Translations under genes and position numbers: made by a program
Part shown: positions 4,376-51,681 of the stretch, in pieces
Numbering within the stretch: position 1 is the first letter of the stretch
How the letters are laid out: each line of letters starts with the position of its first letter
The notes under the pieces: model-generated
The model's input: the letters and a program-made list of their open reading frames with translations, nothing else
The model's database searches: none
Told to the model about the DNA's origin: nothing
IMG/VR virus record: IMGVR_UViG_3300035698_011431
Coordinates: 1 to 64,000 of that record
From: a virus
Taxonomy: Duplodnaviria; Heunggongvirae; Uroviricota; Caudoviricetes
Direction: 5' to 3' (one strand)
DNA: 64,000 bases

Positions 4376-5245
4376 ATGGAAAGTAAAAGATTTTATGTTT
4401 ATCAATTAATAGACTCTAGGACTGAACAGGTTTTCTATATAGGTAAAGGACAAGGAAAAAGGTGTAATGATCATGAACGAAATGCAAAAAAGGGTCGTTC
4501 TCATAACAGGCATTTAGGATATAAAATTCTGAAGATCCTGGGAGAAGGGGAAGAGGTGAAGATAAAGAAAGTATTTGAGACTGATGTTGAGCAAGAAGCA
4601 TTTGACAGGGAGATTGAATTAATAAAAATGTATGGGAAAGAAAACTTATGTAATTACGCTGATGGAGGGGAAGGATCGTCTGGGGTGCCATCACCTAAGA
4701 AGGGGCTTACTGTAAATGACGATGATAGGATAAGAAGATTTGTAGAAGCAGGTAGAAAGGCAAGGAAAGGAATGTCGGCATGGAACAAAGGCAAAGAATA
4801 TACAGAAGAGGAAAAAGAGATGATAGATATGGAAGGGTTAAAGAAATATAGAGAAGAGCATGGCAATTGGAACAAAGGCAAAACCTTTTCAAAGGAATAC
4901 CGTCAAAAACTATCAGAAGCCCACAAGGGAAAAACGCTACCAGAAGAACAAAAACGAAAGATAGGACAAGCATTAAAGGGAAGGATAGTAACTGAAGAGA
5001 CTAGGAAGAAAATAGGGGATGCTAATAGAGGAAAGAATAGTGTAAATTATGGTAGGAAATATTCAGAAGAAGAAAGAGCAGAATTAAGTATGAAAGGTAA
5101 TTCTAAGCTAGATCGAGAAACGGTACTAGCAATAAGGGGCTATAGTGGTAACATGAGTTTAAGAGAGTTAGGGGTAAAATATGGAGTATCTAAACAGATA
5201 GCACAAGGTGTGAAGAGTGGGCGAACATACCAATACATAAAGTAA
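4376..5245 (+). CDS. GIY-YIG homing endonuclease with repeated NUMOD3-like DNA-binding motifs
   Basis: N-terminus FYVYQLIDSRTEQVFYIGKGQGKRCNDH (GIY-YIG); repeated W/NKGK...E/K modules; free-standing between capsid and connector genes. Confidence 0.8.
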   Translation: MESKRFYVYQLIDSRTEQVFYIGKGQGKRCNDHERNAKKGRSHNRHLGYKILKILGEGEEVKIKKVFETDVEQEAFDREIELIKMYGKENLCNYADGGEGSSGVPSPKKGLTVNDDDRIRRFVEAGRKARKGMSAWNKGKEYTEEEKEMIDMEGLKKYREEHGNWNKGKTFSKEYRQKLSEAHKGKTLPEEQKRKIGQALKGRIVTEETRKKIGDANRGKNSVNYGRKYSEEERAELSMKGNSKLDRETVLAIRGYSGNMSLRELGVKYGVSKQIAQGVKSGRTYQYIK

Positions 5246-14861: not shown

Positions 14862-15377
14862 ATGAGTAATAATATAAGTTCAAATACATTTTCATCTGCT
14901 ACCCAGATAAAATCAGCAGAAGTAAACACAAACTTTACCGACCAAGCAGAATTAATAAATGCTAAGGCTTTAGTCAACTTAACATCGGATCAAAGCATAG
15001 CAACTGGAACGGAAACTTTGTTAGCTTTTGCAACTGAAATATACGACCCAGGAAGCAACTTTGATAATACAGGTGGTAACTATAGCTTTACAGCTCCTGT
15101 AACAGGATATTATTGGATCAATCTACAAGCTAGGGTAAACACTTTAACAAATGCAAAATTCAATTCAGTAAGAATAAAGAATAATAGTACAGTTATAGCT
15201 CAACAGGAAAGATATGCATCGGCAAATGTGAGTACATCTTCAAGTGTGAGTATTGTTTATCTGTTAACAGCAACAGATGTATTACAATTTTATGAAGCAC
15301 ATGATAACGGTTCAAACAGAGATGTAGAAGCTGATGGAATAGCAACATGGGCTAATATTCATCTATTAAGTACATGA
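14862..15377 (+). CDS. putative tail fibre / receptor-binding protein
   Basis: 171 aa, S/T/N-rich, beta-rich C-terminus, position after Tal. Confidence 0.3.
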   Translation: MSNNISSNTFSSATQIKSAEVNTNFTDQAELINAKALVNLTSDQSIATGTETLLAFATEIYDPGSNFDNTGGNYSFTAPVTGYYWINLQARVNTLTNAKFNSVRIKNNSTVIAQQERYASANVSTSSSVSIVYLLTATDVLQFYEAHDNGSNRDVEADGIATWANIHLLST

Positions 15378-15859
15378 TAAGATTCACCTGCTTACAATGT
15401 AATAAGGTTTATAACTTCGAAAACCTAAGAGCTATGAATAGCTTCAGGAAGACTTATCATATTGTAAGTGAGAAAGGGAATAAGACGAGGAATGCAGTAT
15501 GTTCTACTTGTTATTCGGATCTATTTAATCGAGATGGAAGCATTAAGAGTCGTACAGAGGTTGTAGCTCTATACGTTAAGTCAGGGGGAATAGAAGAAAA
15601 CTTCCAGGCAATGGATTGGGATGAAACTGAAATGGATTATAAAATAATCAAAGGAACGATTGAAAATGTCCAATTAAAAGCTAAAGTAGTGAGGGCATTT
15701 TCTCCTGCACAACAGGTTGTAACGGCTAACTTAAGGGGGATATTATATAACAGAGTAATTAATGATCTATATGAAGCAGGTTGTTCATTACAAGAGATTA
15801 GAGACGCCAGGAACGCTGGTCACCCATCTTTGGTAGATTTAATCAGAACATATTTATAA
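15374..15859 (+). CDS. hypothetical protein (Cys-containing N-terminus)
   Basis: 161 aa ORF overlapping neighbours by 4 nt. Confidence 0.35.
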   Translation: MIRFTCLQCNKVYNFENLRAMNSFRKTYHIVSEKGNKTRNAVCSTCYSDLFNRDGSIKSRTEVVALYVKSGGIEENFQAMDWDETEMDYKIIKGTIENVQLKAKVVRAFSPAQQVVTANLRGILYNRVINDLYEAGCSLQEIRDARNAGHPSLVDLIRTYL

Positions 15860-16206
15860 TGGACATAGAATTAATCAATAAAATAGGGTGGCAGGCAGCG
15901 AGCTTTGTTGTGACACTTTTGTTGTTAGTATGGATAGTTAAAAAAGCTTTTTCTATGATGGATAAACAACATAAAGATCATAGGGAAGACAGAAGAATGG
16001 ATGGGGAAAAAATAGAAAAGATAAGTGATGAATTTACAGTAGCACTCAAGGATATTAGTGTGGAAGCTAAAAAAGGACATGATAAAGTACAAGCTCAATT
16101 GAACAGAATAGAAGATTATTCCAGTAAAACCTATTCAAATTTAACAAACCTAAAAGATAATACAGATCGTATAATTCATAATAAAGACTATGATAAAAAA
16201 GTTTAA
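15859..16206 (+). CDS. putative holin / lysis membrane protein
   Basis: 115 aa with one N-terminal TM (AASFVVTLLLLVWIV) then charged coiled-coil; directly upstream of endolysin. Confidence 0.3.
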   Translation: MDIELINKIGWQAASFVVTLLLLVWIVKKAFSMMDKQHKDHREDRRMDGEKIEKISDEFTVALKDISVEAKKGHDKVQAQLNRIEDYSSKTYSNLTNLKDNTDRIIHNKDYDKKV

Positions 16207-16981
16207 AAGAGGGACCAAAGAATTCCCTAAAAGTTGGGAGATATATTATATGCACCCCTATGAGTATGATTGCCCTTGTGGTTGTTCGCCTACTCCAATT
16301 GATAAAGGACTTGTACAGAAAGACGATGTAATGAGGGATAGTGCAGGACATCCATTAATTATAACAAGTGGACATAGATGTAAGAAACACAACTCTACTA
16401 TTAAGGGAGCCGCTTCAAACTCTCAACATATCTATGGAAAAGCTTCTGATAAAAAGATACCTGGAATAACTATAGGACAATTGCACAACCTTACAGAAAG
16501 GCTTGGCTATAATGGGATAGGATATTATACAAATAGAATACATGGGGACGTAAGAAGTAAGAAAGCTAAATGGAATCTTCCCCTAAGAAAGACTACTAAC
16601 AAGCCTATTACAATTAAAGATGATCAAATGTATAAAAAGAAATTTGAGTTCATGGATAAGGAATATAAACGTTTAGAGAAAACATACTTTAAAAGACAAG
16701 CTCAATTAGAAAAAAAGACAATTGAAGTTCTTGAATTAAAAGAAGAGATAACGGATCAACAAATAGAAATAACAGATTTGAATATAGAAGTAGATAAATG
16801 TAGGGCATTTGTAGATGACCAGGCAAAAGAGATAACACGTCTTAGAGGATTAGAAGAAGAAAGGGAAGAAGAAGAGAAAGAAAAGGAAGAAGAGGAGGAG
16901 GAGAAAAACAATAATGATACTAAACGTGTATCATTAATAGAATTTATAACTAATTTATTTAAAAAGAATGATAAAGATTAA
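16190..16981 (+). CDS. endolysin, peptidase M15 (L-Ala-D-Glu / VanY-like) catalytic domain + C-terminal coiled-coil/acidic region
   Basis: ITSGHRCKKHNSTIKGAASNSQHIYGKASD matches the SGYR...H...GGA.NSQH...A.D zinc-peptidase signature of phage M15 endolysins. Confidence 0.75.
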   Translation: MIKKFKRGTKEFPKSWEIYYMHPYEYDCPCGCSPTPIDKGLVQKDDVMRDSAGHPLIITSGHRCKKHNSTIKGAASNSQHIYGKASDKKIPGITIGQLHNLTERLGYNGIGYYTNRIHGDVRSKKAKWNLPLRKTTNKPITIKDDQMYKKKFEFMDKEYKRLEKTYFKRQAQLEKKTIEVLELKEEITDQQIEITDLNIEVDKCRAFVDDQAKEITRLRGLEEEREEEEKEKEEEEEEKNNNDTKRVSLIEFITNLFKKNDKD

Positions 16982-17180
16982 GGAGTATTTAGCTAATCAT
17001 CCTCAAATAGAAAGAAGGTTTTGTTCGTTTATGTGGAGGTTTCTTCCAGCAGTAAGTTTATTTGCAATAGGATTCTTAACAGATTGGATTGACTCTGAAT
17101 TTAAAGAAGAGACCACAATTATGTTAGTGATCTCTTATCTATTAAATGAAGTTACAAAGTATCTTAATAAAAAGACTTAG
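16968..17180 (+). CDS. small membrane protein (lysis accessory?)
   Basis: 70 aa, one TM (FLPAVSLFAIGFL). Confidence 0.3.
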   Translation: MIKIKEYLANHPQIERRFCSFMWRFLPAVSLFAIGFLTDWIDSEFKEETTIMLVISYLLNEVTKYLNKKT

Positions 17181-17998
17181 CTTTTGATATCAATAAATGG
17201 GATTGCTCCACCTGTATATAATGGCATTACTCCATTCCATTTTTTAATTGATTCGTATTCGTTTTCAATCCTTCTCAGTTCTAGGATATCAGGGTTAGCT
17301 TGAAGAGCAGAAGCTTCTATTCTTATAGCTTCTGATTTACCTCTAGCTGCTTCTATCTTTTGATCTGATTGATATTTTACTTTCTCTAGTCTATTCTTTT
17401 CAGCTTCTGCTTCCTGAACTGCGGTTACTTTCGCTTCAATTGCTAGATCGAATTGTTCCGAGAATTGGAAGTTTACAAGTCTAACTTGTTCTACTTCGAT
17501 AAAGTCAGTTTCGATTCTTGATTTTACAGCTTCTTTAATCTCTTTATTAACTTCATCTCTTTTAGTTATCAATTCAGTTGCTGTAAATTTTGCTGTAACT
17601 GATTTTACACCTTCCTGTAATGCCGGCATAATAATTTTCCCTACATATTCTTCCTCGTCTCCAATTTTCTGATATAATTTATTTACTTTTTTAGCATCTG
17701 CCCTATAGTTTATAGCTACTGTTAGTTGAACATCTTGAAGATCAAGACTAGCCGCATCGGCAAGTTTTTCTTCTTTTTGAGTCCTTACATTCATCTTCTT
17801 AATCTTTTGTACGAAAGGAATCTTAAAGTGAACCCCTTCATCTAGAACTCTTTCTGATACTGCTCCAAATGTCATTAATACACCACGTTCCCCTGCTCTT
17901 ACTACACGCACACTTGCAAACAATAATATGATGATGGCAATAATGATTGATCCAGCCCATACTAATCGCTTGATTGTTTTTGACGATAATTCGTCCAT
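17177..17998 (-). CDS. SPFH / band-7 (stomatin/prohibitin-like) membrane protein
   Basis: 273 aa; N-terminal TM then RVVRAGERGVLMTFGAVSERVLDEGVHFKIPFVQKI, the hallmark SPFH start; C-terminal coiled-coil. Confidence 0.8.
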   Translation of the reverse strand: MDELSSKTIKRLVWAGSIIIAIIILLFASVRVVRAGERGVLMTFGAVSERVLDEGVHFKIPFVQKIKKMNVRTQKEEKLADAASLDLQDVQLTVAINYRADAKKVNKLYQKIGDEEEYVGKIIMPALQEGVKSVTAKFTATELITKRDEVNKEIKEAVKSRIETDFIEVEQVRLVNFQFSEQFDLAIEAKVTAVQEAEAEKNRLEKVKYQSDQKIEAARGKSEAIRIEASALQANPDILELRRIENEYESIKKWNGVMPLYTGGAIPFIDIKS

Positions 17999-18026
17999 AT
18001 ATTTTTTTCTTAATTATAATATAACT

Positions 18027-18452
18027 TCATTTAATTTTTTCTAGTAATAACATCCTTTCAATAGTAAGTGTTTGGATTTGAGGGGTAATATCTTCTACTC
18101 TTTGTGTATTTATCATTAGCTTAGCAGCGTTATCTTGAGCAGCATCGACAATCATTTCCCCACAAATTAATATCCCTTGATCTTTTAATCCTATAAGCTT
18201 AGTATCAACTTTAATTAATTCATTGTAACTATCTTCTTTCTTACATACTTCTTTCTCTACAATTTTCTCAACTTCCACTACCTTTTCTACTTCTTTCTCA
18301 ACCTCTACTTCTTTGATTTCAGGTTCTACTTCTTCTGGAGTAGGGGATATACCTACAAGTATTCCAAATATAAATACAAAGAATGCAAATCCTAATATTA
18401 CCACCCAAAACTCTGGCATTTTGAATGTATCTTTTAACTTATTAAAGTCCAT
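18027..18452 (-). CDS. NfeD-like membrane protein (putative SPFH partner)
   Basis: 141 aa, N-terminal TM, E/K/V repeat linker, C-terminal beta-rich domain; immediately upstream of SPFH gene on same strand. Confidence 0.35.
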   Translation of the reverse strand: MDFNKLKDTFKMPEFWVVILGFAFFVFIFGILVGISPTPEEVEPEIKEVEVEKEVEKVVEVEKIVEKEVCKKEDSYNELIKVDTKLIGLKDQGILICGEMIVDAAQDNAAKLMINTQRVEDITPQIQTLTIERMLLLEKIK

Positions 18453-18478
18453 GTTTTTTAACTAATTAATTATAATTA

Positions 18479-18823
18479 TTAACAATCTTCTATAGGATGG
18501 AATTCATCATCTATCTGACAACCAACTGCATAGCCAGGTAATTCTCCTGGGATACTTAACTCTTGAGATTCTGGTTCTATAGGTTGTTCCACTCTTCCCC
18601 ATTCCTTACTCATAATAGATAGATCTAAAACGTTAACTATCCCATCTCCATTGATATCAGCTATCTCATCATCCGATCCCCATTTCTTTCCTATGTATTC
18701 AAGATCAAATACATTAACTTCACCATCATTGTTTAGATCGCTTTGTAGTGCAGCATACACTGTATAAGAAGTGAATACTGTAAAGGTTGCTATTATTACT
18801 ATTGCTATTTTAATTTTGTTCAT
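18479..18823 (-). CDS. secreted protein with a dockerin type-I-like domain
   Basis: signal peptide then two Ca-binding repeats DLNNDGEVNVFDL and DINGDGIVNVLDL (D-x-N-x-D-G-x-V-N-x-x-D), the dockerin signature. Confidence 0.7.
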   Translation of the reverse strand: MNKIKIAIVIIATFTVFTSYTVYAALQSDLNNDGEVNVFDLEYIGKKWGSDDEIADINGDGIVNVLDLSIMSKEWGRVEQPIEPESQELSIPGELPGYAVGCQIDDEFHPIEDC

Positions 18824-18831
18824 TTGTTTTT

Positions 18832-18927
18832 TTATTAATTTAATCTTTTTTTTATTATAAAGAATACAATACTCGTAGTAATCGTTCCTATTATATCTCC
18901 GATTATTATTCCTAGTTCAAAGCTCAT
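18832..18927 (-). CDS. small hydrophobic peptide, copy 1 (MSFELGIIIGDIIGTITTSIVFFIIKK...)
   Basis: ~31-aa ORF lying in a 75-bp direct repeat (18853-18927 / 19645-19719). Confidence 0.35.
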
Positions 18928-19114
18928 TCCTTTATAATTTATTATATACAAATCATAATTATTTGTTTTCTGTTTTATCTTTTGGCCTAGATTTGTTTTT
19001 ATACAAGTTATCCAATAACTCTATCGCCTCATCCAATTCCACTACATTCCTACTCATGTCAAAAATTTTACAATACAACTTTTGATATTCCATTTTTCTG
19101 TTATTTCCCATTTT

Positions 19115-19399
19115 TTAAATTGTTAAAAGCTTTGCCATTTTCTCACTTTCTTCTTTTGCTTTATTTATCCCTTTTTCCGTTACACTTACATCTCTTCTAC
19201 TTTCCATCCTTTTGTTGTTATTATACTCGTCTATATCATTTACCATTTGTCCAAACCTTTTATAATATCCTTTCGTCTCTCCCATAATCATATGTCCTTT
19301 TACAAATTTCCCTGTTTTCATGTCAATTGCACCTTCTTCTTTTGGAGTTATATCTAGTACATTTTTCATGTTTATATAATTACTTTTAATATATTTCAA
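19115..19399 (-). CDS. hypothetical protein
   Basis: 94-aa ORF between the two small-peptide copies. Confidence 0.35.
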   Translation of the reverse strand: MKYIKSNYINMKNVLDITPKEEGAIDMKTGKFVKGHMIMGETKGYYKRFGQMVNDIDEYNNNKRMESRRDVSVTEKGINKAKEESEKMAKLLTI

Positions 19400-19562
19400 T
19401 TATACCATATGGATAGTTGTTGTCAACCCCTTAATCTTGTTTATTCATCATGTCTTTCAAGGTATAATATCTTTCTTTTTTCTTTTTTAATATTTTCTTT
19501 CTATTTTTCTTATAGCTTTTACGTTGTGATTTTCTACAAACTTCACGACGTTTATTTAAATC

Positions 19563-19719
19563 TTTATATGGCATCTTGATTGTTTTTTTCTAATAATTCA
19601 TAAGACTCTTTAAATGTCATCGGTAATTCCTTTAATCTTTTAATTATTATAAAGAATACAATACTCGTAGTAATCGTTCCTATTATATCTCCGATTATTA
19701 TTTCTGGTTCAAAGCTCAT
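19563..19719 (-). CDS. small hydrophobic peptide, copy 2 with C-terminal extension (MSFEPEIIIGDIIGTITTSIVFFIII...)
   Basis: 51-aa ORF, first 26 aa almost identical to copy 1. Confidence 0.35.
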
Positions 19720-19726
19720 CTCTTTA

Positions 19727-20191
19727 TTATTGATTATATTTCTCTAATAATTTTGTTATAGGTTTTAAAGCCTCAATGGCTTTTGCTATCTTCCATTTAT
19801 CCGCTGAAGGAATGCCAGAGTTATCATCCTCATCTATATCCTTTTGATTCTTAATAAGCTGAAGTAATGTATCTAGTCTTAATGTTACAAGGGTGTTTTC
19901 ATAAGGATCTCTATTGATCTTGAAGGCAAGTAAGGGTTCGTATCCTAGAACATCTAACTTCTCTGCTTGTTTCCACCATTCGGGGATGTGGATGTTCTTA
20001 TGGTTCTTAGCTTCTATTCCTGCTGTCTTCCCATTTACCATCATAGACGTATCCACATCTCTCTTCTCTCTATTGCCTGCTCCACTAGCACCATCTCTTT
20101 TAGCTTTGTCATCTAATCCATATTTGATTATCTGATCTGTTATCCAGGATTCTAGTTTCTTACCCTTCTGTTTTTTTTGGCTTGCTTTCAT
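19727..20191 (-). CDS. Holliday-junction resolvase, Hjc-like (PD-(D/E)xK nuclease)
   Basis: E...RDGASGAG...KRDVD...GIEAKNHK matches the Hjc order E / R.x.SG / D / IExK. Confidence 0.45.
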   Translation of the reverse strand: MKASQKKQKGKKLESWITDQIIKYGLDDKAKRDGASGAGNREKRDVDTSMMVNGKTAGIEAKNHKNIHIPEWWKQAEKLDVLGYEPLLAFKINRDPYENTLVTLRLDTLLQLIKNQKDIDEDDNSGIPSADKWKIAKAIEALKPITKLLEKYNQ

Positions 20192-20295
20192 TTAGTTTTC
20201 TTAATTCTTTTACATCTCCAATTTGAGCAATAGATTCTCCACATGCCTTACATCTAATATCCATTGCATATATAGTAGTGTTATTTTGATTTCAA

Positions 20296-20580
20296 TTAAT
20301 TCTCTATTTCTCCACCCCCTCCGAATTGATTATAATTATCTTCATTGAGAGTATAGATTATCATTCCTTTTATTGCCTTGAGTCCATAGAAATATGATTT
20401 CGGTTCTACTTGTAATTCTCCAGCCCAGTAATCTTTCATACATTTTTGAATCTCTATTGAATAGTCAAACACGAATTCAACTTTATTGTGATCTATTTTT
20501 TTTGTTTCAATTAACTTGAAATCGAAATATGACAATATTGAAGCAAATGCCATGTCGGTTGTTTTGTAATATTTATCCAT
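20296..20580 (-). CDS. hypothetical protein
   Basis: 94-aa ORF in leftward operon. Confidence 0.3.
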   Translation of the reverse strand: MDKYYKTTDMAFASILSYFDFKLIETKKIDHNKVEFVFDYSIEIQKCMKDYWAGELQVEPKSYFYGLKAIKGMIIYTLNEDNYNQFGGGGEIEN

Positions 20581-20787
20581 TGTGTTGATGTTCTAAATCT
20601 TGATTCTCTAATAATAACTTTACTTATATTACCGCATTATAAATCATATATGTTAATAGAGCAGTTGCAATTCCTATAGCCATGAATACTGTTATGTTTT
20701 GTAGTGACCAGTCTTTACACCAGCCTTTTATTTCTTCAGTCTCATTTTCTTTCTTTAGTGGTTTCATTGTTTTTTAATTGTTATTTT

Positions 20788-21063
20788 TTATAATTTATCT
20801 ATAATATCTCCTTCTTCTATTTTCTTCATCATACTCTTTTTGAAAAGCCTATATGTTTTTTCAGTCATTTTAAGATCTTCGATTATTTGATCTGTCATTT
20901 TTTTTGTTATCTCAAGGTTATTATTTGACTTTTCCTCAGGGAAATCTTCCTTGTATCGACTACACCAAATTCCTAAAACCTGTTGCCTTTCATTCATGCC
21001 TGCTTCATTCTTAGCTTTCATGAATTGATTTAATGATTCTGGCATCAGTCTTTCTATATCCAT
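20788..21063 (-). CDS. hypothetical protein
   Basis: 91-aa ORF. Confidence 0.3.
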   Translation of the reverse strand: MDIERLMPESLNQFMKAKNEAGMNERQQVLGIWCSRYKEDFPEEKSNNNLEITKKMTDQIIEDLKMTEKTYRLFKKSMMKKIEEGDIIDKL

Positions 21064-23256: not shown

Positions 23257-23517
23257 TTATTGTGGAAAGAGAATAAATTCTCCTAGCTCCACATCATAAT
23301 ACTTGCAAAGTTTTGCAAGATTATATAACTTTGGATTCTTTCTTCCTGCTTCTACATTACAAATATAAGTTGAGTTCTTATGTCCCAACTTTTTAGCAAT
23401 TTCATTTTGAGTTAAACCCGCAACAATCCTTGCTCTTCTTAACTTTTTCCCTAAAATCATGTATGGTATTTTATTAATATGTGTATCTATATTATACCTT
23501 TTGAGAATAAAAGTCAA
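23257..23517 (-). CDS. XRE-family HTH transcriptional regulator (cI/Cro-like)
   Basis: ILGKKLRRARIVAGLTQNEIAKKLGHKNSTYICNVEAGRKNP is a canonical HTH_3 motif; faces a divergent promoter/operator region. Confidence 0.7.
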   Translation of the reverse strand: MTFILKRYNIDTHINKIPYMILGKKLRRARIVAGLTQNEIAKKLGHKNSTYICNVEAGRKNPKLYNLAKLCKYYDVELGEFILFPQ

Positions 23518-28227: not shown

Positions 28228-28356
28228 GTGAGAGAGTGGCGGAATAGTAGACGCAAGTATTAGCGTGCTGTAGAGGGCGAAGATTATTTCATGTCCCTTA
28301 AAATCAAATCCATGGTTAATTATCTACATGCAAGGTCTTGTCCTTGCCTCTCTCCC
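28226..28356 (+). ncRNA. tRNA-like structured element A (GAGAGAG-TG-GCGGAATAGTAGACGC ... GCAAGGTCTTGTCCTTGC-CTCTCTC)
   Basis: acceptor-like 7-bp terminal pairing, D-arm-like and T-arm-like hairpins, ~75-nt insert at anticodon position. Confidence 0.45.
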
Positions 28357-28451
28357 TTAGTTTTTAAAACTAAACTCAAATTACTTGTCTTTCTTGAGTA
28401 TAAATAAATACAAAGGCACAGCTTTAACTAATTAGAATTAATATTAAATAA

Positions 28452-33859: not shown

Positions 33860-35021
33860 ATGAATAATCAAGATTAAAAACTTAGCTTGCAGGAGACAAA
33901 TATTAAATTAACAAAAATTGTTTAGTTGTTGTTGTTATTATTAGAATGTTTGTTCTATCCTAGACCCTTAGACCTCCTGCAAGTTAATTCTTTAATTAAT
34001 AAACAAATGACAGACAAACTACTAAGAGGATATTTCAAAGCAAACATGATAATAATACCTCCATTATGTTTAGTGGGATTTATTATATCAGTTCAGGGAG
34101 ATATGATATGGGAAGGGATAGTATTATTATTGATAGCGGTAGGGCATTTCTTCATTTCAAAATCATTATATAATAATATAGATAAGATATGAACATCATA
34201 AAAAGGCTAGAAAGAACAATCAATTCAGAGGTAATATTCTGTTGGAATAAAAAGATCAACTTAGAGACAGCAAAGAAAATAACCAAAATACAAAAAAAGA
34301 TAAAAGAGATATTACCAGAGGGATGGAATTATGAATATCATACAAACAAAACTAATTATACAGAGCATATAATTGAGAAGAAAGACGGGAGTTTAATTGA
34401 TATATTACATAACACAGAAAAAACATGAACATAAAAAGAGAGGACGCATATCCTAACATAACAGACTTAGCACGCGCACAATTAAGCAAATCAGATAAAC
34501 AGCCTATAAGAATGGATATAAACAAGCAATTAAAGATTTTAAAAGGAAGTTCCTTGAAGATAAAAGGGATGATCTGTATTTAACTACAAAAAAAATGTTA
34601 GAAAATAAAACAATGAAAAAGAGAATAGAATTTCTAGTAAATTATAAGCCTCCTATATCTAAACTGGGAAAGGAAATGGTTGGCGTACTTAGTCGCATGG
34701 ATCTAGGGATAAGTGGTGTAGAGTTACCACCAACAACAGAGAACTGGAGCTGGTCAACTACCGAGAAGGTGGATAATGAATATATTAAGAAGATGAAAGG
34801 AGTAATTCAAGAAGCTATCAATAGCCAAGGTGGTGAATTAATAAAAGTAAACTATTTACAATGACACTCCATCAAAAGTTAGTTAACAGAGCCTACGCAA
34901 ACAAAAGGCTCACCAAAAGAGAATATAGTAATCTATTAAAAGTAATAGATAAAGGAGACCTAGGGAGTGAGCAAGAATTTAAGATGATAGTTAACAAAAT
35001 TAATAGATAATAACATTGATA

Positions 35022-35199
35022 ATTAGAGTTTTATGGAGTAGTGGCGGAATAGTAGACGCATATATGAAGCGGATTCCAGTATAGTTACACTGTGGCGCAA
35101 CGGTAGCGCTTAGGGGTTTTCCCCTGCGGTTGTAGGTTCGAGTCCTACCAGTATGTAACATGCAAGGTCTTGTCCTTGCCTACTCCATTAAGCTCTAAT
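35022..35199 (+). ncRNA. tRNA-like structured element B: long terminal stem ATTAGAG..GGAGTAG / CTACTCC..CTCTAAT, A-type D-arm and T-arm modules, and a nested second cloverleaf-like insert (D-arm GCGC-AACGGTA-GCGC, T-arm GTAGG-TTCGAGT-CCTAC)
   Basis: read directly; anticodon-equivalent region of inner unit is a 4-nt-loop hairpin AGGGG-TTTT-CCCCT. Confidence 0.45.
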
Positions 35200-42137: not shown

Positions 42138-42302
42138 ATGAGAAGACTTACAGCATTATTGATGATACTAGGCGTGGTTATATTGGTAGCTGGCTGCGAG
42201 ATAAAAGCCAAAGATGATCGCAAAACGATCAAGCGTAACCCAATACGGCCCCCGTACCATCAAATCGCAATGACTTACTATCGACACATTAAGTTGGTAT
42301 AA
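42138..42302 (+). CDS. small lipoprotein (signal peptide + lipobox LVAG-C)
   Basis: MRRLTALLMILGVVILVAGCEIK...; GGAGGTGA Shine-Dalgarno 7 nt upstream; start chosen inside ORF-track ORF 42072..42302. Confidence 0.5.
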   Translation: MRRLTALLMILGVVILVAGCEIKAKDDRKTIKRNPIRPPYHQIAMTYYRHIKLV

Positions 42303-43372: not shown

Positions 43373-43930
43373 ATGAAATATAAAGTCATAAAAGAGTTCA
43401 TGCCTGAGGAGAAGTGGAAAGATATTACAAGTTATGAAGGTTTATATCAAATAAGTAATAAAGGAAGAGTCAAAAGTTTAATAAACAATATAATACTCAA
43501 ATTATACGATGATAGATATAACACTGTTTTTTTAAGCAAAGGGAAAAAGCAAAAATGTTATTTAGTACATAGATTGGTGGGGAAAGAATTTATTGAGAAT
43601 CCATTAGGGAAATTAGAAATAAATCATAAAGATGGGAACGGGTTAAATAATAATGAGGGGAATTTAGAGTGGTGTACTAGAGCAGAGAATGTGAGACATA
43701 CTTATAGGATCTTAGGAAGAGAGAAAACTAATCCGACCAAAGGGAAGTTTGGCAAGTTGCATTTTAGAAGCAAATTAATATATCAATATGATTTAATTGG
43801 GAACAAAATAGCCGAATATTGGGGAGGTAATGAGGCTAAAAGAAAGACGGGATATACTCAATCGCAGATAGCAAAAGCTTGTAGAGAAGGGAATGTTGTT
43901 TATGGTTATAAATGGAAATATATAAATTAA
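43373..43930 (+). CDS. HNH homing endonuclease (NUMOD4 + HNH_3 type)
   Basis: YEGLYQISNKGRVKSL (NUMOD4-like) and INHKDGNGLNNNEGNLEWCTRAENVRH (HNH_3). Confidence 0.7.
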   Translation: MKYKVIKEFMPEEKWKDITSYEGLYQISNKGRVKSLINNIILKLYDDRYNTVFLSKGKKQKCYLVHRLVGKEFIENPLGKLEINHKDGNGLNNNEGNLEWCTRAENVRHTYRILGREKTNPTKGKFGKLHFRSKLIYQYDLIGNKIAEYWGGNEAKRKTGYTQSQIAKACREGNVVYGYKWKYIN

Positions 43931-46404: not shown

Positions 46405-47448
46405 ATGAATTTAGATAAAATAAATAATTTAATAGAGGAGAAGTATGTCTCAGTGCAGAAACACCCTATTGAAGATTTATATATCTATAACTATACACAC
46501 AAGGCTCAATTCGAGGGGAAATGGGATAAGGAAATAAGGATATGTAGGGGATTAATTTTAGATGGGAATAGTGATATTATAGCTAGACCCATGGAAAAAT
46601 TTTTTAATTATGAAGAGGTCGAAGTTAGGGATATTGAAATACCTAAAACAGATTTTAAGGTTTATGAAAAGTTAGACGGCTCGTTAATAATTTTATTTTA
46701 TTATAAACATAAATGGCGAGTAGCTACGAGGGGAAGCTTTACTTCAGATCAGGCAATAAAAGCCCGGGAATTATTAATAAATTATCAGCAATATATAAAC
46801 AAATTTAATAGAAATTATACATATTCACTAGAAGTTATTTATAAATCGAATCGTATTGTATGTGATTATGGAGAAGATGAAAGGCTAGTATTATTAGCAG
46901 GAATAAATATAGAGACAGGCAAAGAAATAGATATAATGAATATAGATTATCCTGATAAGCCAGAAATATTGTCAGGAGTTAAAGATTACAAAGAGATTAA
47001 GGCAAAAGAAGAAAAGAATAAAGAAGGATTTGTAATTAGATATGAAAATGGATTCAGATTGAAGGTTAAGTTTGAAAATTACAAGCGTTTGCATTCTATG
47101 TTGACAGGGATGACAGCACGTAAGATATGGCAAGCTTTAAAAGATAAAGAAGAGGTAAGTAAATATTTGGAAAAAGTACCAGATGAGTTTTATAAGTTTT
47201 TTAAAGACAAAGTAAAAGAAATTGGGAATAATTATAAGGAGATAGAGAGTAAATCAATTGAATATTATAAAGAGAATAGGGGACTAGATCGAAAAGAATT
47301 AGCAATTAAAGTAAACAAAGAAAAGGATAAACGAATAATACCGATTGTATTTAGTCTTTTAGACAAAAAGGATTATTCGGAAACAATATGGAAGATGATA
47401 AAACCAAAACATGAAATGCCACTTAATCAAATAGAAGACAATGAGTAA
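46405..47448 (+). CDS. RNA ligase 1 (T4 RnlA/gp63-like)
   Basis: CRGLILDG...ARPMEKFFNYEE parallels T4 Rnl1 ECRGIMFE...SRPMEKFFNLNE; motif I KLDGSL. Confidence 0.7.
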   Translation: MNLDKINNLIEEKYVSVQKHPIEDLYIYNYTHKAQFEGKWDKEIRICRGLILDGNSDIIARPMEKFFNYEEVEVRDIEIPKTDFKVYEKLDGSLIILFYYKHKWRVATRGSFTSDQAIKARELLINYQQYINKFNRNYTYSLEVIYKSNRIVCDYGEDERLVLLAGINIETGKEIDIMNIDYPDKPEILSGVKDYKEIKAKEEKNKEGFVIRYENGFRLKVKFENYKRLHSMLTGMTARKIWQALKDKEEVSKYLEKVPDEFYKFFKDKVKEIGNNYKEIESKSIEYYKENRGLDRKELAIKVNKEKDKRIIPIVFSLLDKKDYSETIWKMIKPKHEMPLNQIEDNE

Positions 47449-48292
47449 AATTTACATGACCTGTGGCTTACCTGCAAGTGGGAAAAGTACATGGGCGAAA
47501 CAATATATAAAGGAGAATCCTAACACTAAAATCGTAAATAAAGATTCTTTTAGGGCAATGTTAGATAATGGAAAATGGTCAAAGGGAAATGAAAAGTTTG
47601 TTTTAGAAGTTAGGGATTTAATAATAATCGCAGCATTAAAACAAGGTAAAGATATTATAGTAGACGATACTAATTTTAATATTGTTCACTTGAAAAGAAT
47701 AGAAGAAATAGCAGAAAAGCATAATGCAGAGGTGGAAATAAAAGATAGTTTTTTGGATATTCCATTGGATGAATGTATTGAGAGAGATAAGAAAAGAGAA
47801 GGCAGTGTTGGGGAAAAAGTTATTCGAGGGATGTATGACAAATATTTAAAGGAAAAGGATTATGTAAGACAAGACAAAGAATTATCAAAGGCTGTTGTCT
47901 TTGACGTCGATGGGACTTTAACTACAGGTCCTAAAGACAGAAGTCCCTATGAATGGAGTAAGGTTGGACAAGACGAACTATGTCAAGAAGTATATAATGC
48001 GTATAAGCTATACAAAGAAGCTGGATATAAAATAATAATCTTTACAGGACGTGATGGGTGTTGTGAAAAGGAGACAAAGGAATGGTTAAAAAAATATAAT
48101 ATAGAGTATGATTATTTTGATATTAGACCATTGGGAAACGCCGAAAACGATGCTATAATAAAGGAAAGGATGGTAAAGGAAATCTTAGATAAATATTACA
48201 TAGAAGTGGTTTTCGATGACAGAAATCGTGTTTGTAAAAAATGGCGTCAGCTAGGATTCAAATGTTATCAAGTGGCGTGTGGGGATTTTTAA
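47441..48292 (+). CDS. polynucleotide 5'-kinase / 3'-phosphatase (T4 PseT-like)
   Basis: P-loop GLPASGKST at N-terminus; HAD phosphatase motif VVFDVDGTLT in C-terminal half. Confidence 0.85.
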   Translation: MSKIYMTCGLPASGKSTWAKQYIKENPNTKIVNKDSFRAMLDNGKWSKGNEKFVLEVRDLIIIAALKQGKDIIVDDTNFNIVHLKRIEEIAEKHNAEVEIKDSFLDIPLDECIERDKKREGSVGEKVIRGMYDKYLKEKDYVRQDKELSKAVVFDVDGTLTTGPKDRSPYEWSKVGQDELCQEVYNAYKLYKEAGYKIIIFTGRDGCCEKETKEWLKKYNIEYDYFDIRPLGNAENDAIIKERMVKEILDKYYIEVVFDDRNRVCKKWRQLGFKCYQVACGDF

Positions 48293-48302
48293 GAATATTT
48301 AA

Positions 48303-49430
48303 ATGACTATGAAAAGAAAATTAGCTAGTATACAAATAATCGAGTCTTTGGAAGAAATCCCTAATGCAGATAGGATTGAAGTTGCAACTGTTTTGGGATG
48401 GCATTTAGTAGTAAAGAAAGGACAGTTCGAGGTTGGGGATAAATGTGTATATTTTGAAACTGATTCTCTCCTTCCGATAAAAAAAGAGTTTGAGTTTTTG
48501 GCAAAAGATGGGACAAAGAAAATAATTGGAGATGATAATAAAGAATATGAAGGATATCGGCTGAAAACTATAAAGTTGAGAAAACAAATATCTAGTGGCT
48601 TGGCATTATCGCTAAATGAATTAAAGGTAAAGGGGAGCGAAGGGGATGATCTAACAAAAGAGTTAGGGATAATAAAATATGAAGCATTGTCTATTGGAAC
48701 AAATGTTTCAAGTAAAAGACCGGTAGTTTTTCCAAAGTGGATTCCAAAAGGGATAGGGGTTTTTATTAAAAGACATTTTCCTAAGACTGCACGAAAATTG
48801 TGGGGAAAGTCTTTGAGAAGTTTTCCTTCTTATATAGAGAAAACAGATGAAATAAGAATACAAGGTTCTCCTAAGATATTAGAACGACATAAGGATAAAA
48901 AGTTTTATGTAACAGAGAAATTGGATGGTTCTAGTGTTACGATATTTAGGGAAAAGGATAAAACTCAAGTTTGTAGTAGAAAGGTATGGCTTCCAAGGGA
49001 AGACGGCAATCAGTTTTGGGATGCGGTAACTAAGATTGAGGATAAGTTAAATGATTTGGAAGATATAGCATTACAGGGGGAATTAGTAGGGGTAGGGATT
49101 CAAAAGAACCCATTAAAAATGAAGGATAGAAAGATATATTTCTTTAATGCGTATGATTATCAAAAAGGAGAATATCTTAATTTCAAAGAATTCCAGGGAC
49201 TAATAACTAGGCTTGGATTAGAAACTGTTCCTATAATAGAAACAAGTTATAGGCTTCCAGAAACAATTGATGAAATGGTAGAGTATAGTACAAGGAAATC
49301 GACAATAGCAAAAGAAGAGTGGGCAGAAGGATTAGTATTTAGATCTTTAGAAGAAACTCAAGATCAAAGGATTGGTAGGTTAAGTTTTAAATGTATAAAC
49401 CCTAGCTTTCTTCTAGCACATGGGGATTAA
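48303..49430 (+). CDS. second ATP-dependent polynucleotide ligase (KxDG nucleotidyltransferase; RNA ligase candidate) with N-terminal OB-like domain
   Basis: motif I TEKLDGSSV, downstream ligase-like motifs; family assignment uncertain. Confidence 0.5.
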   Translation: MTMKRKLASIQIIESLEEIPNADRIEVATVLGWHLVVKKGQFEVGDKCVYFETDSLLPIKKEFEFLAKDGTKKIIGDDNKEYEGYRLKTIKLRKQISSGLALSLNELKVKGSEGDDLTKELGIIKYEALSIGTNVSSKRPVVFPKWIPKGIGVFIKRHFPKTARKLWGKSLRSFPSYIEKTDEIRIQGSPKILERHKDKKFYVTEKLDGSSVTIFREKDKTQVCSRKVWLPREDGNQFWDAVTKIEDKLNDLEDIALQGELVGVGIQKNPLKMKDRKIYFFNAYDYQKGEYLNFKEFQGLITRLGLETVPIIETSYRLPETIDEMVEYSTRKSTIAKEEWAEGLVFRSLEETQDQRIGRLSFKCINPSFLLAHGD

Positions 49431-50255: not shown

Positions 50256-50771
50256 ATGGAAATAAAAAACATACCAATAGAAGAAATCAATGTAATAGGA
50301 GATAATCCTAGAGAGTTATCAGATGAAAGATTTGAAGCTCTAAAAAAGTATGCCAAGAAATATGGTTTGCTTACTCCATTAGTAGTAGACAAGAGAAGCA
50401 ATAGTTTAATCGGAGGACATTCAAGATTATTAGCTATTAAAGAGCTAGGATGGAAAGAAGTACCTTGTAATATGGTAGAGCCAAAAGACGATTCAGAAAG
50501 GAAAGAAATGCAGTTAATAGACAATGAACAGTTTGGACATTGGATAGAAGATGAGTTGGTAGTTTTCGTTAAAGACACTGGAATAATACTAGAAGACTAC
50601 GAAATACAAACAGATAGTATTAGTTTAGATGAAATAGTTAATGGGGAGGACGTAGATATAGATGATTTCTTCAGGGAGAAAACAGACGAAGAGAAAGAAA
50701 AGGAAAGGGAGGAAGAACAAGAAAAAAAAGAAATTAAATGTCCCAAATGTGGATTTTTATTTGAAAGATGA
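50256..50771 (+). CDS. ParB/Srx-fold nuclease-domain protein with C-terminal Zn-ribbon (DpdB-like partner of DpdA?)
   Basis: IGDNPRELSDERFEALKKYAKKYGLLTPLVVDKRSNSLIGGHSRLLAIKELG fits ParB N-terminal domain; CPKCG at end. Confidence 0.6.
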   Translation: MEIKNIPIEEINVIGDNPRELSDERFEALKKYAKKYGLLTPLVVDKRSNSLIGGHSRLLAIKELGWKEVPCNMVEPKDDSERKEMQLIDNEQFGHWIEDELVVFVKDTGIILEDYEIQTDSISLDEIVNGEDVDIDDFFREKTDEEKEKEREEEQEKKEIKCPKCGFLFER

Positions 50772-51676
50772 AAATATTTTTAGCAAATACTTATTCGTCT
50801 TGGAGGGGGGATATATTAGAGAATTATATGAAAATTTATTTAGCGGGGACACTTACAGGGAATAATAGTTATATTTACCGAGATATGAATGTACATTTAG
50901 TTGATTTAAAAAGAATAAAAAAAGACATGGAAATTTTTATAGCGAGAGGGAATTGCGGGTGGATGACTGGGAAAGAGATAAAATTCAATGATTTTCTCGA
51001 TATATATATACTTGAGAGTTTTTTCTATTTAGATGATTGGATGAAGGTCTTAATAAAAAAGAAGGTGTTTAAAAGGTTTTTATTGGATAGCGGAGCATTT
51101 ACGTTCATGACAGGGGTTGGTGGGGAAGTAAACTGGGAGGAATATGTTGATAAATATGCAAAATTCATAAAAGAATATGATGTAGAATTATTCTTTGAAC
51201 TAGACATTGATTCAGTTGTAGGGTTGAAGAAGGTTGAAGAGCTCCGAGGAAGGTTGGAAGAGAAATCGGGAAAAAGGTGTATCCCTGTTTGGCATAAATC
51301 AAGAGGGAAGGAGTACTTTATAAAAATGTGCGAAGAATATAATTATGTAGCAATAGGGGGGATAGTTACTAAGGAAATAACAGGGAGAGAACATAAGCAT
51401 TTCCCCTGGCTAATAGATATAGCTCATCAAAATAATGCTAAGATTCATGGATTAGGATATACAAACTTAAAAGGATTAAAGAAGTATCATTTCGATTCGG
51501 TAGATTCAACTGCATGGATATATGGGAACAGGGGAGGGTATTTATATAAATTTACAGGCAACACTTTAAAGCAAATACAGTCACCGGAGGGGCTTAGATT
51601 AAAAGGGAGAGAAGCGGCTATACATAATTTTCAAGAATGGATAAAATTTCAAAAATACGCAGATAAAAATTTATAA
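50768..51676 (+). CDS. dpdA: tRNA-guanine-transglycosylase-like protein, DpdA-type DNA 7-deazaguanine transglycosylase (putative)
   Basis: LLDSGAFTF resembles the catalytic TDSGGFQ of TGT; placed between ParB-like and queDEC-folE. Confidence 0.55.
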   Translation: MKIFLANTYSSWRGDILENYMKIYLAGTLTGNNSYIYRDMNVHLVDLKRIKKDMEIFIARGNCGWMTGKEIKFNDFLDIYILESFFYLDDWMKVLIKKKVFKRFLLDSGAFTFMTGVGGEVNWEEYVDKYAKFIKEYDVELFFELDIDSVVGLKKVEELRGRLEEKSGKRCIPVWHKSRGKEYFIKMCEEYNYVAIGGIVTKEITGREHKHFPWLIDIAHQNNAKIHGLGYTNLKGLKKYHFDSVDSTAWIYGNRGGYLYKFTGNTLKQIQSPEGLRLKGREAAIHNFQEWIKFQKYADKNL

Positions 51677-51681
51677 AAACT

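What the first reader, a model, noticed from the sequence alone, without database searches (positions are those of the whole stretch)
17177..18823. Leftward operon encoding a dockerin-domain secreted protein, an NfeD-like protein and an SPFH/band-7 protein
A canonical SPFH protein is preceded on the same strand by a membrane protein with NfeD-like layout, matching the bacterial nfeD-SPFH operon arrangement. Upstream of both is a small secreted protein whose only recognisable feature is a two-repeat dockerin module (DLNNDGEVNVFDL / DINGDGIVNVLDL). The set lies at the distal end of the repressor-headed early-left operon, where phages keep exclusion and lysogenic-conversion genes. A phage-supplied membrane-microdomain scaffold plus a cohesin-docking protein could act in superinfection exclusion or surface remodelling. 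The dockerin also hints that the host carries cohesin-bearing surface scaffolds.
Basis: partly seen in the sequence, partly recalled or inferred. Interest (0 to 1): 0.6.

Follow-up and report, generated by a model that had tools for sequence, protein, structure and literature searches.

The report
Phage dockerin, membrane protein and prohibitin genes
An uncultivated phage carries three neighbouring genes for cell-envelope proteins: a tiny secreted dockerin, a new single-pass membrane protein and a prohibitin-type scaffold. The supposed NfeD partner is not NfeD, and the trio is a loose set of accessory genes rather than a conserved machine.

Summary
Two calls hold. ORF 17177-17998 is an SPFH protein (Band_7, E 8.8e-34), and ORF 18479-18823 is a signal peptide followed by a two-repeat dockerin (Dockerin_1, E 1e-11). 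The "NfeD-like" call fails. ORF 18027-18452 has no NfeD profile match. It has one TM helix, an acidic linker and a confidently modelled helical hairpin, not an OB-fold barrel. The SPFH protein is prohibitin/HflC-type, a class with no known NfeD partners.

The middle protein belongs to a small phage family with 8 representatives among 1.84 billion proteins. SPFH lies in the same operon in 2 of about 9 independent lineages. The dockerin gene travels with neither. Relatives keep the middle gene at the same convergent junction with the lysis genes but lack SPFH and dockerin.

The cluster is a variable accessory region at the end of an HTH-headed leftward block, downstream of a perfect sigma-70 promoter. 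No cohesin, integrase or defence-system match was found in the window. Prohibitin genes occur in 351 phage records. Dockerins occur on endolysins and tail proteins in viral contigs, but a bare secreted dockerin is rare. Function is untested. Interest is moderate to low.

The parts
17177..17998 (-). Prohibitin-type SPFH/Band 7 protein, 273 aa, with an N-terminal TM anchor (about residues 12-30), an SPFH domain and a C-terminal coiled coil
   Evidence: Band_7 E 8.8e-34 and PHROG 200 E 3e-53. The best solved relatives are prohibitin-2 and prohibitin-1 (6.5e-30, 1.9e-28), then HflC and HflK; no stomatin or flotillin appears. The hydropathy maximum lies at residues 12-30.
18027..18452 (-). Bitopic membrane protein, 141 aa, of a new small phage family: TM helix, acidic KEVEKxVEK linker, mostly conserved Cys, and a C-terminal two-helix hairpin. 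It is not NfeD.
   Evidence: No family hit. There are 8 homologues of 128-140 aa among 1.84 billion representatives. See also alignment A1 and the AF2 model. Fold searches returned only generic hairpins.
18479..18823 (-). Secreted stand-alone dockerin, 114 aa: signal peptide (1-24), two-repeat dockerin (28-73) and an acidic Pro/Glu tail ending in C-x11-C
   Evidence: Dockerin_1 E 1e-11. Solved dockerins match at 1.9e-5. An orthologue-like protein, P0002, has the same architecture (43% identity; Dockerin_1 2.7e-14).
18835..18927 (-). 30-aa truncated duplicate of the small TM ORF at 19564-19719, just upstream of the dockerin gene
   Evidence: It lies inside the 127-nt direct repeat 18834-18960 / 19626-19752 (87% identity, with a 59-nt identical core).
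19626..19752 (.). Upstream copy of the 127-nt direct repeat. Together with 18834-18960 it brackets a 792-bp segment holding the promoter and two small ORFs.
19399..19426 (-). Perfect sigma-70-type promoter, TTGACA-N16-TATAAT with an extended -10 TG. It is the nearest upstream promoter candidate for the cluster.
   Evidence: It matches 12 of 12 consensus positions. The window holds 3 perfect matches against 0.12 expected. No terminator-like site was found on the minus strand between it and 17177.
18959..19369 (-). Two small ORFs of unknown function (19115-19369 and 18959-19111) between the promoter and the dockerin gene
   Evidence: ORF list. No significant family matched.
23257..23460 (-). 67-aa HTH_3 (Cro/CI-type) protein at the head of the leftward gene block
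   Evidence: HTH_3 E 2.7e-8 on the concatenated query, residues 165-220 of bin 9 (gene g38).
15859..17180 (+). Convergent lysis cassette: a 115-aa TM protein, an M15 endolysin (16190-16981) and a 70-aa membrane protein whose stop overlaps the SPFH stop
   Evidence: Peptidase_M15_3 E 1.8e-14 and PHROG 894 endolysin. ORF layout.

Best explanation
This is a variable accessory ('moron'-type) region at the distal end of the leftward, HTH-headed early block of an uncultivated siphovirus from polar meromictic-lake metagenomes. It encodes three proteins that all go to the cell envelope. They are probably co-transcribed with two small ORFs from a consensus sigma-70 promoter at 19426-19399.

1. A Sec-secreted protein of about 90 aa (mature form) that is essentially a bare dockerin with intact Ca2+ loops.
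2. A bitopic membrane protein whose C-terminal helical hairpin probably faces outward. It belongs to a new small phage family and is not NfeD.
3. A prohibitin/HflC-type SPFH protein. By homology it is expected to form a ring or cage on the outer face of the cytoplasmic membrane.

The middle gene is the conserved resident of this genome position. SPFH and the dockerin are add-ons that come and go.

Inferred mechanism:
- The SPFH ring corrals membrane proteins during infection. The paradigm is HflKC and prohibitin gating FtsH-type proteases.
- The bitopic protein is a candidate client or adaptor of that ring.
- The free dockerin acts separately, occupying a cohesin-type partner on the host surface as a competitive plug.

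Shown here: domain identities, topology elements, gene order, and non-conservation of the trio. Inferred: orientation, ring formation, any partner, any phenotype.
For: Domain calls.

The middle protein is not NfeD. The SPFH4/prohibitin class has no NfeD partner and is predicted to face the periplasm: PMC2636767.

Middle family:
- It has 8 members, all 128-140 aa, with the same layout.
- An SPFH gene lies directly downstream in L009 (73% identical SPFH).
- In L013/L014 it lies three genes downstream, with an SPFH only 23% identical to this one.
- No SPFH gene is found near the middle gene in L010/L071, L015/L016/L072, L017/L018, L020, L021, L067 or L068.

The dockerin gene is absent from every related context. 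L009 joins homologues of window genes g40/g41 directly to middle plus SPFH. L071 keeps the same convergent endolysin layout, with the middle gene as the last gene.

The promoter and the flanking 127-nt repeat point to modular acquisition.

Prohibitin genes are common early-region accessory genes in phages. There are 351 records, with examples next to replication or nuclease genes and no NfeD.

Dockerins in viral contigs act as C-terminal targeting modules on a CHAP endolysin, a GH25 lysozyme and large tail-region proteins. So cohesin-type surface partners are plausibly relevant to phage-host contact.
Against: No experiment or expression data exist.

Co-occurrence of the middle family with SPFH rests on two independent lineages out of about nine. 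That is suggestive only.

The orientation of the SPFH and middle proteins is inferred from homology and charge distribution, which is not decisive for SPFH.

No cohesin was found in the window, even at E<=1 for tail and unknown proteins. The host is unidentified, so the dockerin's partner is unknown. Many non-cellulosomal dockerin-like modules have no known cohesin partner (own knowledge; Peer et al. 2009, cited in PMC8542988).

Tight spacing (26-28 nt) and the shared strand would also fit a functional trio in this particular phage.
Confidence: 0.5

Rival explanations
1. This is a dedicated three-gene module, an NfeD-SPFH membrane-microdomain pair plus a cohesin-docking protein, that works as one unit in superinfection exclusion or lysogenic conversion.
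For: The genes share a strand and have 26-28 nt gaps. They sit at the distal end of an HTH-headed leftward block. All three products are envelope-targeted. A membrane protein lies directly upstream of SPFH, as in nfeD-SPFH operons.
Against: The middle protein has no NfeD profile match, a single TM and an all-helical C-terminal domain. The SPFH protein belongs to the prohibitin class, which lacks NfeD partners (PMC2636767). The trio is not conserved: relatives lack the dockerin, or lack both the dockerin and SPFH. No integrase was found in the window and there was no PADLOC match.
Confidence: 0.15
2. The cluster is lysis-related. The middle protein would be an i-spanin-like or antiholin-like periplasmic coiled-coil protein, and SPFH would tune holin or membrane integrity, acting with the adjacent lysis cassette.
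For: The architecture (N-terminal TM, extracytoplasmic helical coiled coil, mostly conserved Cys) resembles lambda Rz-type i-spanins (own knowledge; model). The cluster abuts the endolysin cassette in the window and in L071. No obvious spanin pair was recognised in the lysis cassette itself.
Against: The cluster is on the opposite strand, in the early-type block that also carries a RusA-like resolvase. Family members also occur next to a Rep_O-like gene, HTH genes, a portal/ClpP region and methylase genes, not next to lysis genes. There is no partner lipoprotein: the dockerin protein has no lipobox. Fold matches are generic hairpins with E>0.04.
Confidence: 0.1
3. The dockerin ORF is an evolutionary remnant, the leftover targeting module of a larger dockerin-tagged phage protein such as an endolysin or tail protein. 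It would have no function of its own, and SPFH and the middle gene would be unrelated passengers.
For: In 20 viral loci the dockerin is nearly always the C-terminal module of a larger protein. The region shows signs of rearrangement: a 127-nt duplication and a truncated 30-aa ORF immediately upstream.
Against: The ORF has its own signal peptide fused directly to an intact two-loop dockerin. P0002, from an unrelated assembly, has the same signal peptide, dockerin and EPIEPE-tail architecture at 43% identity, which argues for a maintained small protein.
Confidence: 0.1

Closest known systems
Phage-encoded prohibitin-family / Band 7 proteins (PHROG 200; e.g. Burkholderia phage CSP3 WBF05259.1, Faecalibacterium phage FP_Toutatis AUV56734.1)
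   Same: Same domain and size, same N-terminal anchor, and the same location among early accessory genes. Identity is 41% to CSP3 and 32% to FP_Toutatis, and 351 phage records match.
   Different: Those genes stand alone, with no conserved membrane partner or dockerin next to them. None has a tested function as far as my paper searches showed.
Bacterial and archaeal NfeD-SPFH operons (YbbJ-QmcA, YuaF-FloT, PH1510-PH1511)
   Same: A small membrane-protein gene lies directly upstream of an SPFH gene on the same strand.
   Different: NfeD partners carry a C-terminal OB-fold beta-barrel (PMC4208085, listed) and pair with the SPFH1/2/5 classes (PMC2636767). Here the partner is a single-TM helical hairpin and the SPFH protein is prohibitin-type.
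HflK/C-FtsH and mitochondrial prohibitin complexes
   Same: They are the closest solved relatives of the SPFH protein (prohibitin-2 at 6.5e-30, HflC at 1.6e-10). They share the anchor, SPFH domain and coiled-coil layout.
   Different: Those are hetero-oligomers of two paralogues that cage an AAA protease. Here there is a single SPFH gene. Its partner, its ring formation and any FtsH link are untested.
Type I dockerins of cellulosomal and non-cellulosomal proteins (e.g. PDB 2y3n_B)
   Same: Two tandem Ca2+-loop and helix segments, with a Pfam score above the cut-off and alignment to solved dockerins.
   Different: It is not appended to an enzyme or structural protein: the protein is just a signal peptide, a dockerin and a 40-aa tail. 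Positions 10-11 of the repeats are V-F and V-L, not the clostridial S-T pair (sequence reading; the S-T rule is from own knowledge). No cohesin was found nearby.
Dockerin-tagged phage proteins in IMG/VR contigs (CHAP endolysin L053, GH25 lysozyme L058, tail-region proteins L003/L054, L061, L065)
   Same: A viral origin and the same Dockerin_1 module.
   Different: There the dockerin is a C-terminal targeting module of a functional protein. Here it is free and secreted.
Receptor-masking proteins such as phage T5 Llp (functional analogy only, from own knowledge)
   Same: A small, early-expressed, exported phage protein that could bind a host surface component.
   Different: There is no sequence or structural relation. 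Llp is a lipoprotein that binds FhuA. No binding partner is known here.

Membership tests
NfeD (PF01957; short NfeD such as YuaF/YbbJ) | Match to the NfeD profile | tested here: not met
   Pfam returned no family at E<=1. PHROG, NCBIfam and PADLOC also returned none. A profile search of the PDB found no NfeD chain.
NfeD (PF01957; short NfeD such as YuaF/YbbJ) | C-terminal soluble OB-fold beta-barrel | tested here: not met
   AF2 with a 9-sequence alignment gives two long helices (73-105 and 109-140) with pLDDT 86-96 and no strands.
NfeD (PF01957; short NfeD such as YuaF/YbbJ) | Several N-terminal TM helices | tested here: not met
   There is one TM helix (12-34). The multi-TM expectation comes from own knowledge.
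NfeD (PF01957; short NfeD such as YuaF/YbbJ) | Gene directly upstream of an SPFH gene in one operon | tested here: met
   The gap is 28 nt on the same strand. The same holds in L009.
NfeD (PF01957; short NfeD such as YuaF/YbbJ) | Partner SPFH of the stomatin/flotillin classes (SPFH1/2/5) | tested here: not met
   The best solved relatives are prohibitins and HflC/K only. The class rule is from PMC2636767.
SPFH/Band 7, prohibitin-HflC class | Band_7 domain above the Pfam cut-off | tested here: met
   117.5 bits against a cut-off of 23.6.
SPFH/Band 7, prohibitin-HflC class | N-terminal membrane anchor followed by an SPFH domain and a coiled coil | tested here: met
   The hydropathy peak is at residues 12-30. 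Residues 178-246 align to the prohibitin-2 coiled-coil fragment 6iqe_A.
SPFH/Band 7, prohibitin-HflC class | Closer to prohibitin/HflKC than to stomatin or flotillin | tested here: met
   All 14 PDB hits at E<=1e-3 are prohibitins or HflC/K. Sources name the homologues 'prohibitin family protein'.
SPFH/Band 7, prohibitin-HflC class | Large ring or cage oligomer facing the extracytoplasmic side, associated with FtsH | not testable with these tools
   This needs multimer modelling or experiment.
Dockerin type I (PF00404) | Profile match above the cut-off covering both repeats | tested here: met
   45.3 bits against a cut-off of 22.9, residues 28-73 on profile positions 2-54 of 57.
Dockerin type I (PF00404) | Two Ca2+-binding loops with D/N at positions 1, 3, 5, 9 and 12 | tested here: met
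   DLNNDGEVNVFD and DINGDGIVNVLD are read directly from the ORF and align with the loops of 2y3n_B.
Dockerin type I (PF00404) | A cognate cohesin partner | tested here: inconclusive
   No Cohesin match was found in any window protein at E<=1e-3, or at E<=1 for tail and unknown proteins. The host is unknown, so a host cohesin cannot be tested.
Dockerin type I (PF00404) | Appended to a catalytic or structural protein | tested here: not met
   The protein is only a signal peptide, a dockerin and a 40-aa tail. In viral contigs the usual state is a C-terminal module on a larger protein.
i-spanin (Rz-like) | N-terminal TM plus an extracytoplasmic coiled coil | tested here: met
   AF2 model.
i-spanin (Rz-like) | Encoded in the lysis cassette with an o-spanin lipoprotein gene | tested here: not met
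   It lies on the opposite strand to the endolysin. There is no lipobox protein next to it. Homologues sit in early or morphogenesis regions.
Known anti-phage defence or exclusion systems (PADLOC-DB) | Match to any defence-system protein model | tested here: not met
   No hits for seven proteins of the cluster at E<=0.01.

The most novel reading that the evidence does not exclude
The free secreted dockerin is a phage-made decoy. It would saturate cohesin modules on the host surface. Other phages in such communities exploit those modules through dockerin-tipped tail proteins and dockerin-tagged endolysins (seen in IMG/VR loci L003, L061, L065, L053, L058). The decoy would therefore block rival adsorption or keep progeny off cell debris. 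In parallel, the prohibitin-type ring with its new bitopic partner would form a phage-specific SPFH-client pair that remodels the membrane. This would be a new receptor-masking principle based on cohesin-dockerin competition.
Probability: 0.08. Interest if true: 0.7.

Novelty: new variant of a known kind. Interest (0 to 1): 0.35.

Why it matters
Phage prohibitin genes are widespread but have no assigned role. A recurring bitopic partner would give a handle for testing what phage SPFH rings enclose.

Dockerin modules on phage endolysins, tail proteins and now a free secreted protein suggest that cohesin-dockerin docking is used at the phage-host interface. My paper searches did not find this described. 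If the free dockerin competes for host cohesins, it would be a simple new way for a phage to edit a cell surface.

As it stands, the finding is mainly a corrected annotation: not NfeD, and not a conserved module. It also yields two modest leads.

Tried and rejected
- **DNA search of 15000-21000 against INPHARED phages.** No match. tblastn of the dockerin protein against the same phages also found nothing.
- **Single-protein scans of viral contigs.** SPFH and the middle protein found nothing. Alignment A1 was too divergent to search with.
- **Single-sequence AF2 of the middle protein.** Uninformative for the C-terminal domain (pLDDT <50). It was rescued by the 9-sequence alignment.
- **Foldseek of that model against PDB and BFVD.** Only generic helical hairpins such as ING4, designed hairpins, CdvB, PspA and MacA, with nothing at E<=1e-3. 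No fold-based function was assigned.
- **Host assignment.** TerL is at best 37.5% identical to Flavobacterium phages. Only 10 of 100 genes have an SD-like motif. The Na+/Ca2+ antiporter is about 50% identical to Prolixibacteraceae and Patescibacteria proteins. The dockerin scan of GTDB genomes gave hits scattered over several phyla. Together these lean weakly to Bacteroidota or the wider Fibrobacterota-Chlorobiota-Bacteroidota (FCB) group. Three perfect TTGACA/TATAAT promoters do not fit the usual Bacteroidota promoter (own knowledge), so I make no host call.
- **The Ace Lake Cloacimonadota lead.** 'Ca. Stygibacter' has a cohesin scaffoldin and dockerin enzymes (PMC8542988). It is an attractive candidate host type because relatives of this phage come from Ace Lake metagenome 3300031227. 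Nothing links the phage to that genus.
- **Cohesin in the phage.** Searched for and not found.
- **Defence-system models.** None matched.
- **Spanin reading.** Considered and ranked low (see rival explanations).
Full report
**Observation**

The interval 17177-18823 is filled by three consecutive minus-strand ORFs:
- 17177-17998, 273 aa
- 18027-18452, 141 aa
- 18479-18823, 114 aa

The gaps between them are 28 and 26 nt.

The 273-aa protein is a clear SPFH protein. Pfam Band_7 gives E 8.8e-34 and PHROG 200 gives E 3e-53.

The 114-aa protein matches Dockerin_1 at E 1e-11, with 45.3 bits against a cut-off of 22.9, over residues 28-73. It also aligns to solved dockerins, with 2y3n_B at 1.9e-5. The first 24 residues read as a Sec signal peptide with a V-Y-A/A cleavage site (sequence reading; hydropathy). 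The protein is strongly acidic, with net charge -16.

The 141-aa protein has no match in Pfam (even at E<=1), PHROGs, NCBIfam or PADLOC.

**The middle protein is not NfeD**

A full HMMER scan of 1.84 billion representative proteins found only eight relatives, all 128-140 aa. Their alignment shows an N-terminal hydrophobic helix, an acidic KEVEKxVEK linker, a mostly conserved Cys and a C-terminal domain of about 65 residues.

AlphaFold2 on a single sequence was uninformative. With the nine-sequence alignment it gave:
- a TM helix at 12-34
- a disordered linker
- a helical hairpin at 73-105 and 109-140, with pLDDT 86-96 and no strands

NfeD proteins are defined by a C-terminal OB-fold beta-barrel (PMC4208085, listed). 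A profile search of PDB sequences found no NfeD. Foldseek found only generic hairpins.

The SPFH partner is also of the wrong class. All its solved relatives at E<=1e-3 are prohibitin-1/2 and HflC/K. Hinderhofer et al. 2009 found NfeD partners only for SPFH1/2/5, and none for HflKC (SPFH3) or the prokaryotic prohibitins (SPFH4). They predict SPFH4 to face the periplasm (PMC2636767).

The resemblance to an nfeD-SPFH operon is therefore limited to a small membrane-protein gene sitting upstream of an SPFH gene.

**Genomic setting**

The window is a siphovirus-like phage genome. Concatenated-ORF Pfam scans identified the following:
- an HK97-type capsid, tail tube, tape measure, Dit and a Laminin_G_3 tail protein
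- DnaB
- an RNA-repair set
- 7-deazaguanine genes
- TerL, Ro60, TerD and a Na+/Ca2+ antiporter

An M15 endolysin was found in the earlier scan of the ORFs next to the cluster.

The leftward block runs from a 67-aa HTH_3 gene (23257-23460) down to the SPFH gene. The SPFH stop overlaps the stop of the last gene of the convergent lysis cassette. No integrase, recombinase or cohesin was detected. The window has no terminal redundancy, so the genome may continue beyond it.

A perfect TTGACA-N16-TATAAT promoter with an extended -10 lies at 19426-19399 on the minus strand. Three such sites occur in the window against 0.12 expected. No terminator-like site lies between this promoter and 17177 on that strand.

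A 127-nt direct repeat (18834-18960 and 19626-19752, 87% identity) duplicates the start of a small TM ORF. It leaves a truncated 30-aa copy immediately upstream of the dockerin gene. This is a footprint of modular rearrangement.

**Conservation**

Exact copies of the SPFH end of the locus occur on short contigs ENA ERZ27315536 and JGI 3300005915.

| Locus | Arrangement |
|---|---|
| L009 (IMG 3300033064, a Lake A, High Arctic metagenome) | Middle homologue at 46-49% identity, followed directly by an SPFH 73% identical to this one. It is preceded by homologues of window genes g40/g41. The 5.4 kb in between, including the dockerin, is absent. |
| L013/L014 | Middle homologue, with a Band_7 gene only 23% identical to this one three genes downstream |
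| L071 | Same convergent layout (C1q-like fibre, holin-like gene, M15 endolysin). The middle gene is the last gene of the opposing operon. No SPFH and no dockerin. |
| L015/L016/L072, L017/L018, L020, L021, L067, L068 | Other middle-family contexts, none with SPFH nearby |

SPFH therefore accompanies the middle family in two of about nine independent lineages. About 0.7% of GenBank phage records (351 of 50,697) carry a homologue of this SPFH protein. The association is suggestive and not obligatory.

The dockerin protein has only two relatives among 5.8 billion proteins. P0002 has the same signal peptide, dockerin and EPIEPE-tail design. Its 597-nt contig shows no linked genes.

**What is already known about the parts**

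Prohibitin-family genes are annotated in hundreds of phages. They sit among early, replication or nuclease genes without NfeD or a conserved membrane partner. The closest metagenomic SPFH homologues (about 53% identity) are on phage-like contigs, preceded by unrelated small multi-TM ORFs. I found no paper testing a phage SPFH protein.

Dockerins are not reported for phages in the papers I could search. A capped scan of IMG/VR found 20 loci. Dockerin_1 is fused to the C-terminus of these proteins:
- a CHAP endolysin
- a GH25 lysozyme
- large tail-region proteins of up to 1504 aa
- secreted proteins

A further locus encodes a secreted S8 peptidase with a dockerin-like C-terminus found by tblastn, though Pfam scored only the peptidase domain there. 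None of the 20 is a dockerin-only protein.

**Mechanism**

Shown:
- the identity of the two domains
- a single-TM helical-hairpin protein
- co-linearity behind a consensus promoter
- non-conservation of the trio

Inferred:
- By homology to prohibitin and HflKC, the SPFH protein forms a ring on the outer face of the cytoplasmic membrane that sequesters membrane proteins.
- The bitopic protein, which shares an operon with two very different SPFH proteins, is a candidate client or adaptor.
- The secreted dockerin binds a cohesin-type partner that the phage does not encode, and so may act as a competitive plug on the host surface.

The lysogenic-conversion framing lacks support.

Two alternatives cannot be excluded: a lysis-related role for the middle protein, and a remnant status for the dockerin. 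Both rank lower. The reasons are the strand and context evidence for the middle protein and the conserved P0002 architecture for the dockerin.

**Host**

Evidence is weak and conflicting:
- TerL is at best 37.5% identical to Flavobacterium phages.
- Shine-Dalgarno motifs are not enriched: 10 of 100 genes against a 15% background.
- The named relatives of the Na+/Ca2+ antiporter are Prolixibacteraceae and Patescibacteria, at about 50% identity.
- The nearest dockerins in GTDB genomes are scattered across phyla.
- Three perfect sigma-70 promoters are not what Bacteroidota usually use (own knowledge).

Relatives come from Ace Lake (IMG 3300031227; PMC9324843). There, 'Ca. Stygibacter' (Cloacimonadota) carries a cohesin scaffoldin and dockerin enzymes (PMC8542988). 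That is a lead, not a link.

**Verdict**

The region is best described as a mosaic accessory region encoding three envelope proteins. Two modest novelties emerge: a new bitopic family recurrently linked to phage prohibitins, and a rare stand-alone secreted dockerin. It is a new variant of known kinds, of moderate to low interest.

Noticed in passing
window 57137-58845: A perfect sigma-70 promoter (57137-57164) is followed by a structured 270-nt non-coding stretch. That stretch folds with z -5.3 and contains a YrlA-like Y RNA candidate at 57280-57380 (RF02553, 42.8 bits, below the gathering score of 69; E 2e-8 in a 361-nt search). A Ro60/TROVE gene follows at 57442-58845. This looks like a phage Ro60 and Y-RNA module.
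   Followed up: partly
window 59050-60686 and 18479-18823: One phage carries three Ca2+-related genes: TerD (59050-59625), a Na+/Ca2+ antiporter (59676-60686; Na_Ca_ex E 1e-54, about 50% identical to Prolixibacteraceae and Patescibacteria proteins) and the Ca2+-dependent dockerin. Whether they are connected is unknown.
   Followed up: partly
window 19399-19426, 54430-54457, 57137-57164: There are three perfect TTGACA-N16-18-TATAAT promoters against 0.12 expected, in a genome whose genes largely lack Shine-Dalgarno motifs. The combination is unusual and unexplained, and it bears on host identity.
   Followed up: partly
window 18834-18960 and 19626-19752: A 127-nt direct repeat (87% identity, with a 59-nt identical core) duplicates the ribosome-site region and the first ~30 codons of a small TM ORF (19564-19719). 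It brackets a 792-bp segment holding the promoter and two small ORFs.
   Followed up: yes
window 17141-17173 and 18003-18035: An imperfect 33-nt inverted repeat (73% complementary) brackets the SPFH ORF almost exactly. A 17-nt repeat (18004-18020 / 18469-18485) brackets the middle gene. Both may be chance in AT-rich DNA.
   Followed up: no
IMG/VR loci L053, L058, L003/L054, L061, L065: Viral contigs encode endolysins (CHAP, GH25) and very large tail-region proteins that end in a Dockerin_1 module. This suggests cohesin-dockerin docking is used for cell-wall targeting and adsorption by some uncultivated phages.
   Followed up: partly
window 46405-49430 and 50768-54403: An RNA-repair set (two RNA ligases and a Pnkp-like kinase/phosphatase) lies next to a 7-deazaguanine pathway: PTPS/QueD, radical-SAM QueE-like, QueC and GTP cyclohydrolase I.
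   Followed up: no
window 42138-42302: A small ORF (54 aa) has a lipobox-like LVAGC motif, so it is a possible phage lipoprotein. It lies far from the lysis cassette (ORF translation).
   Followed up: no
window 28235-28450, 28933, 29651, 35009-35160, 36254, 37723, 38589: Several 20-33-nt exact repeats are shared between intergenic regions of the rightward early region. They may be repeated regulatory elements.
   Followed up: no
window 4376-5245 and 43373-43930: Homing-endonuclease-like genes are present: a GIY-YIG with NUMOD3 directly after the major capsid gene, and an HNH_3 with NUMOD4.
   Followed up: no
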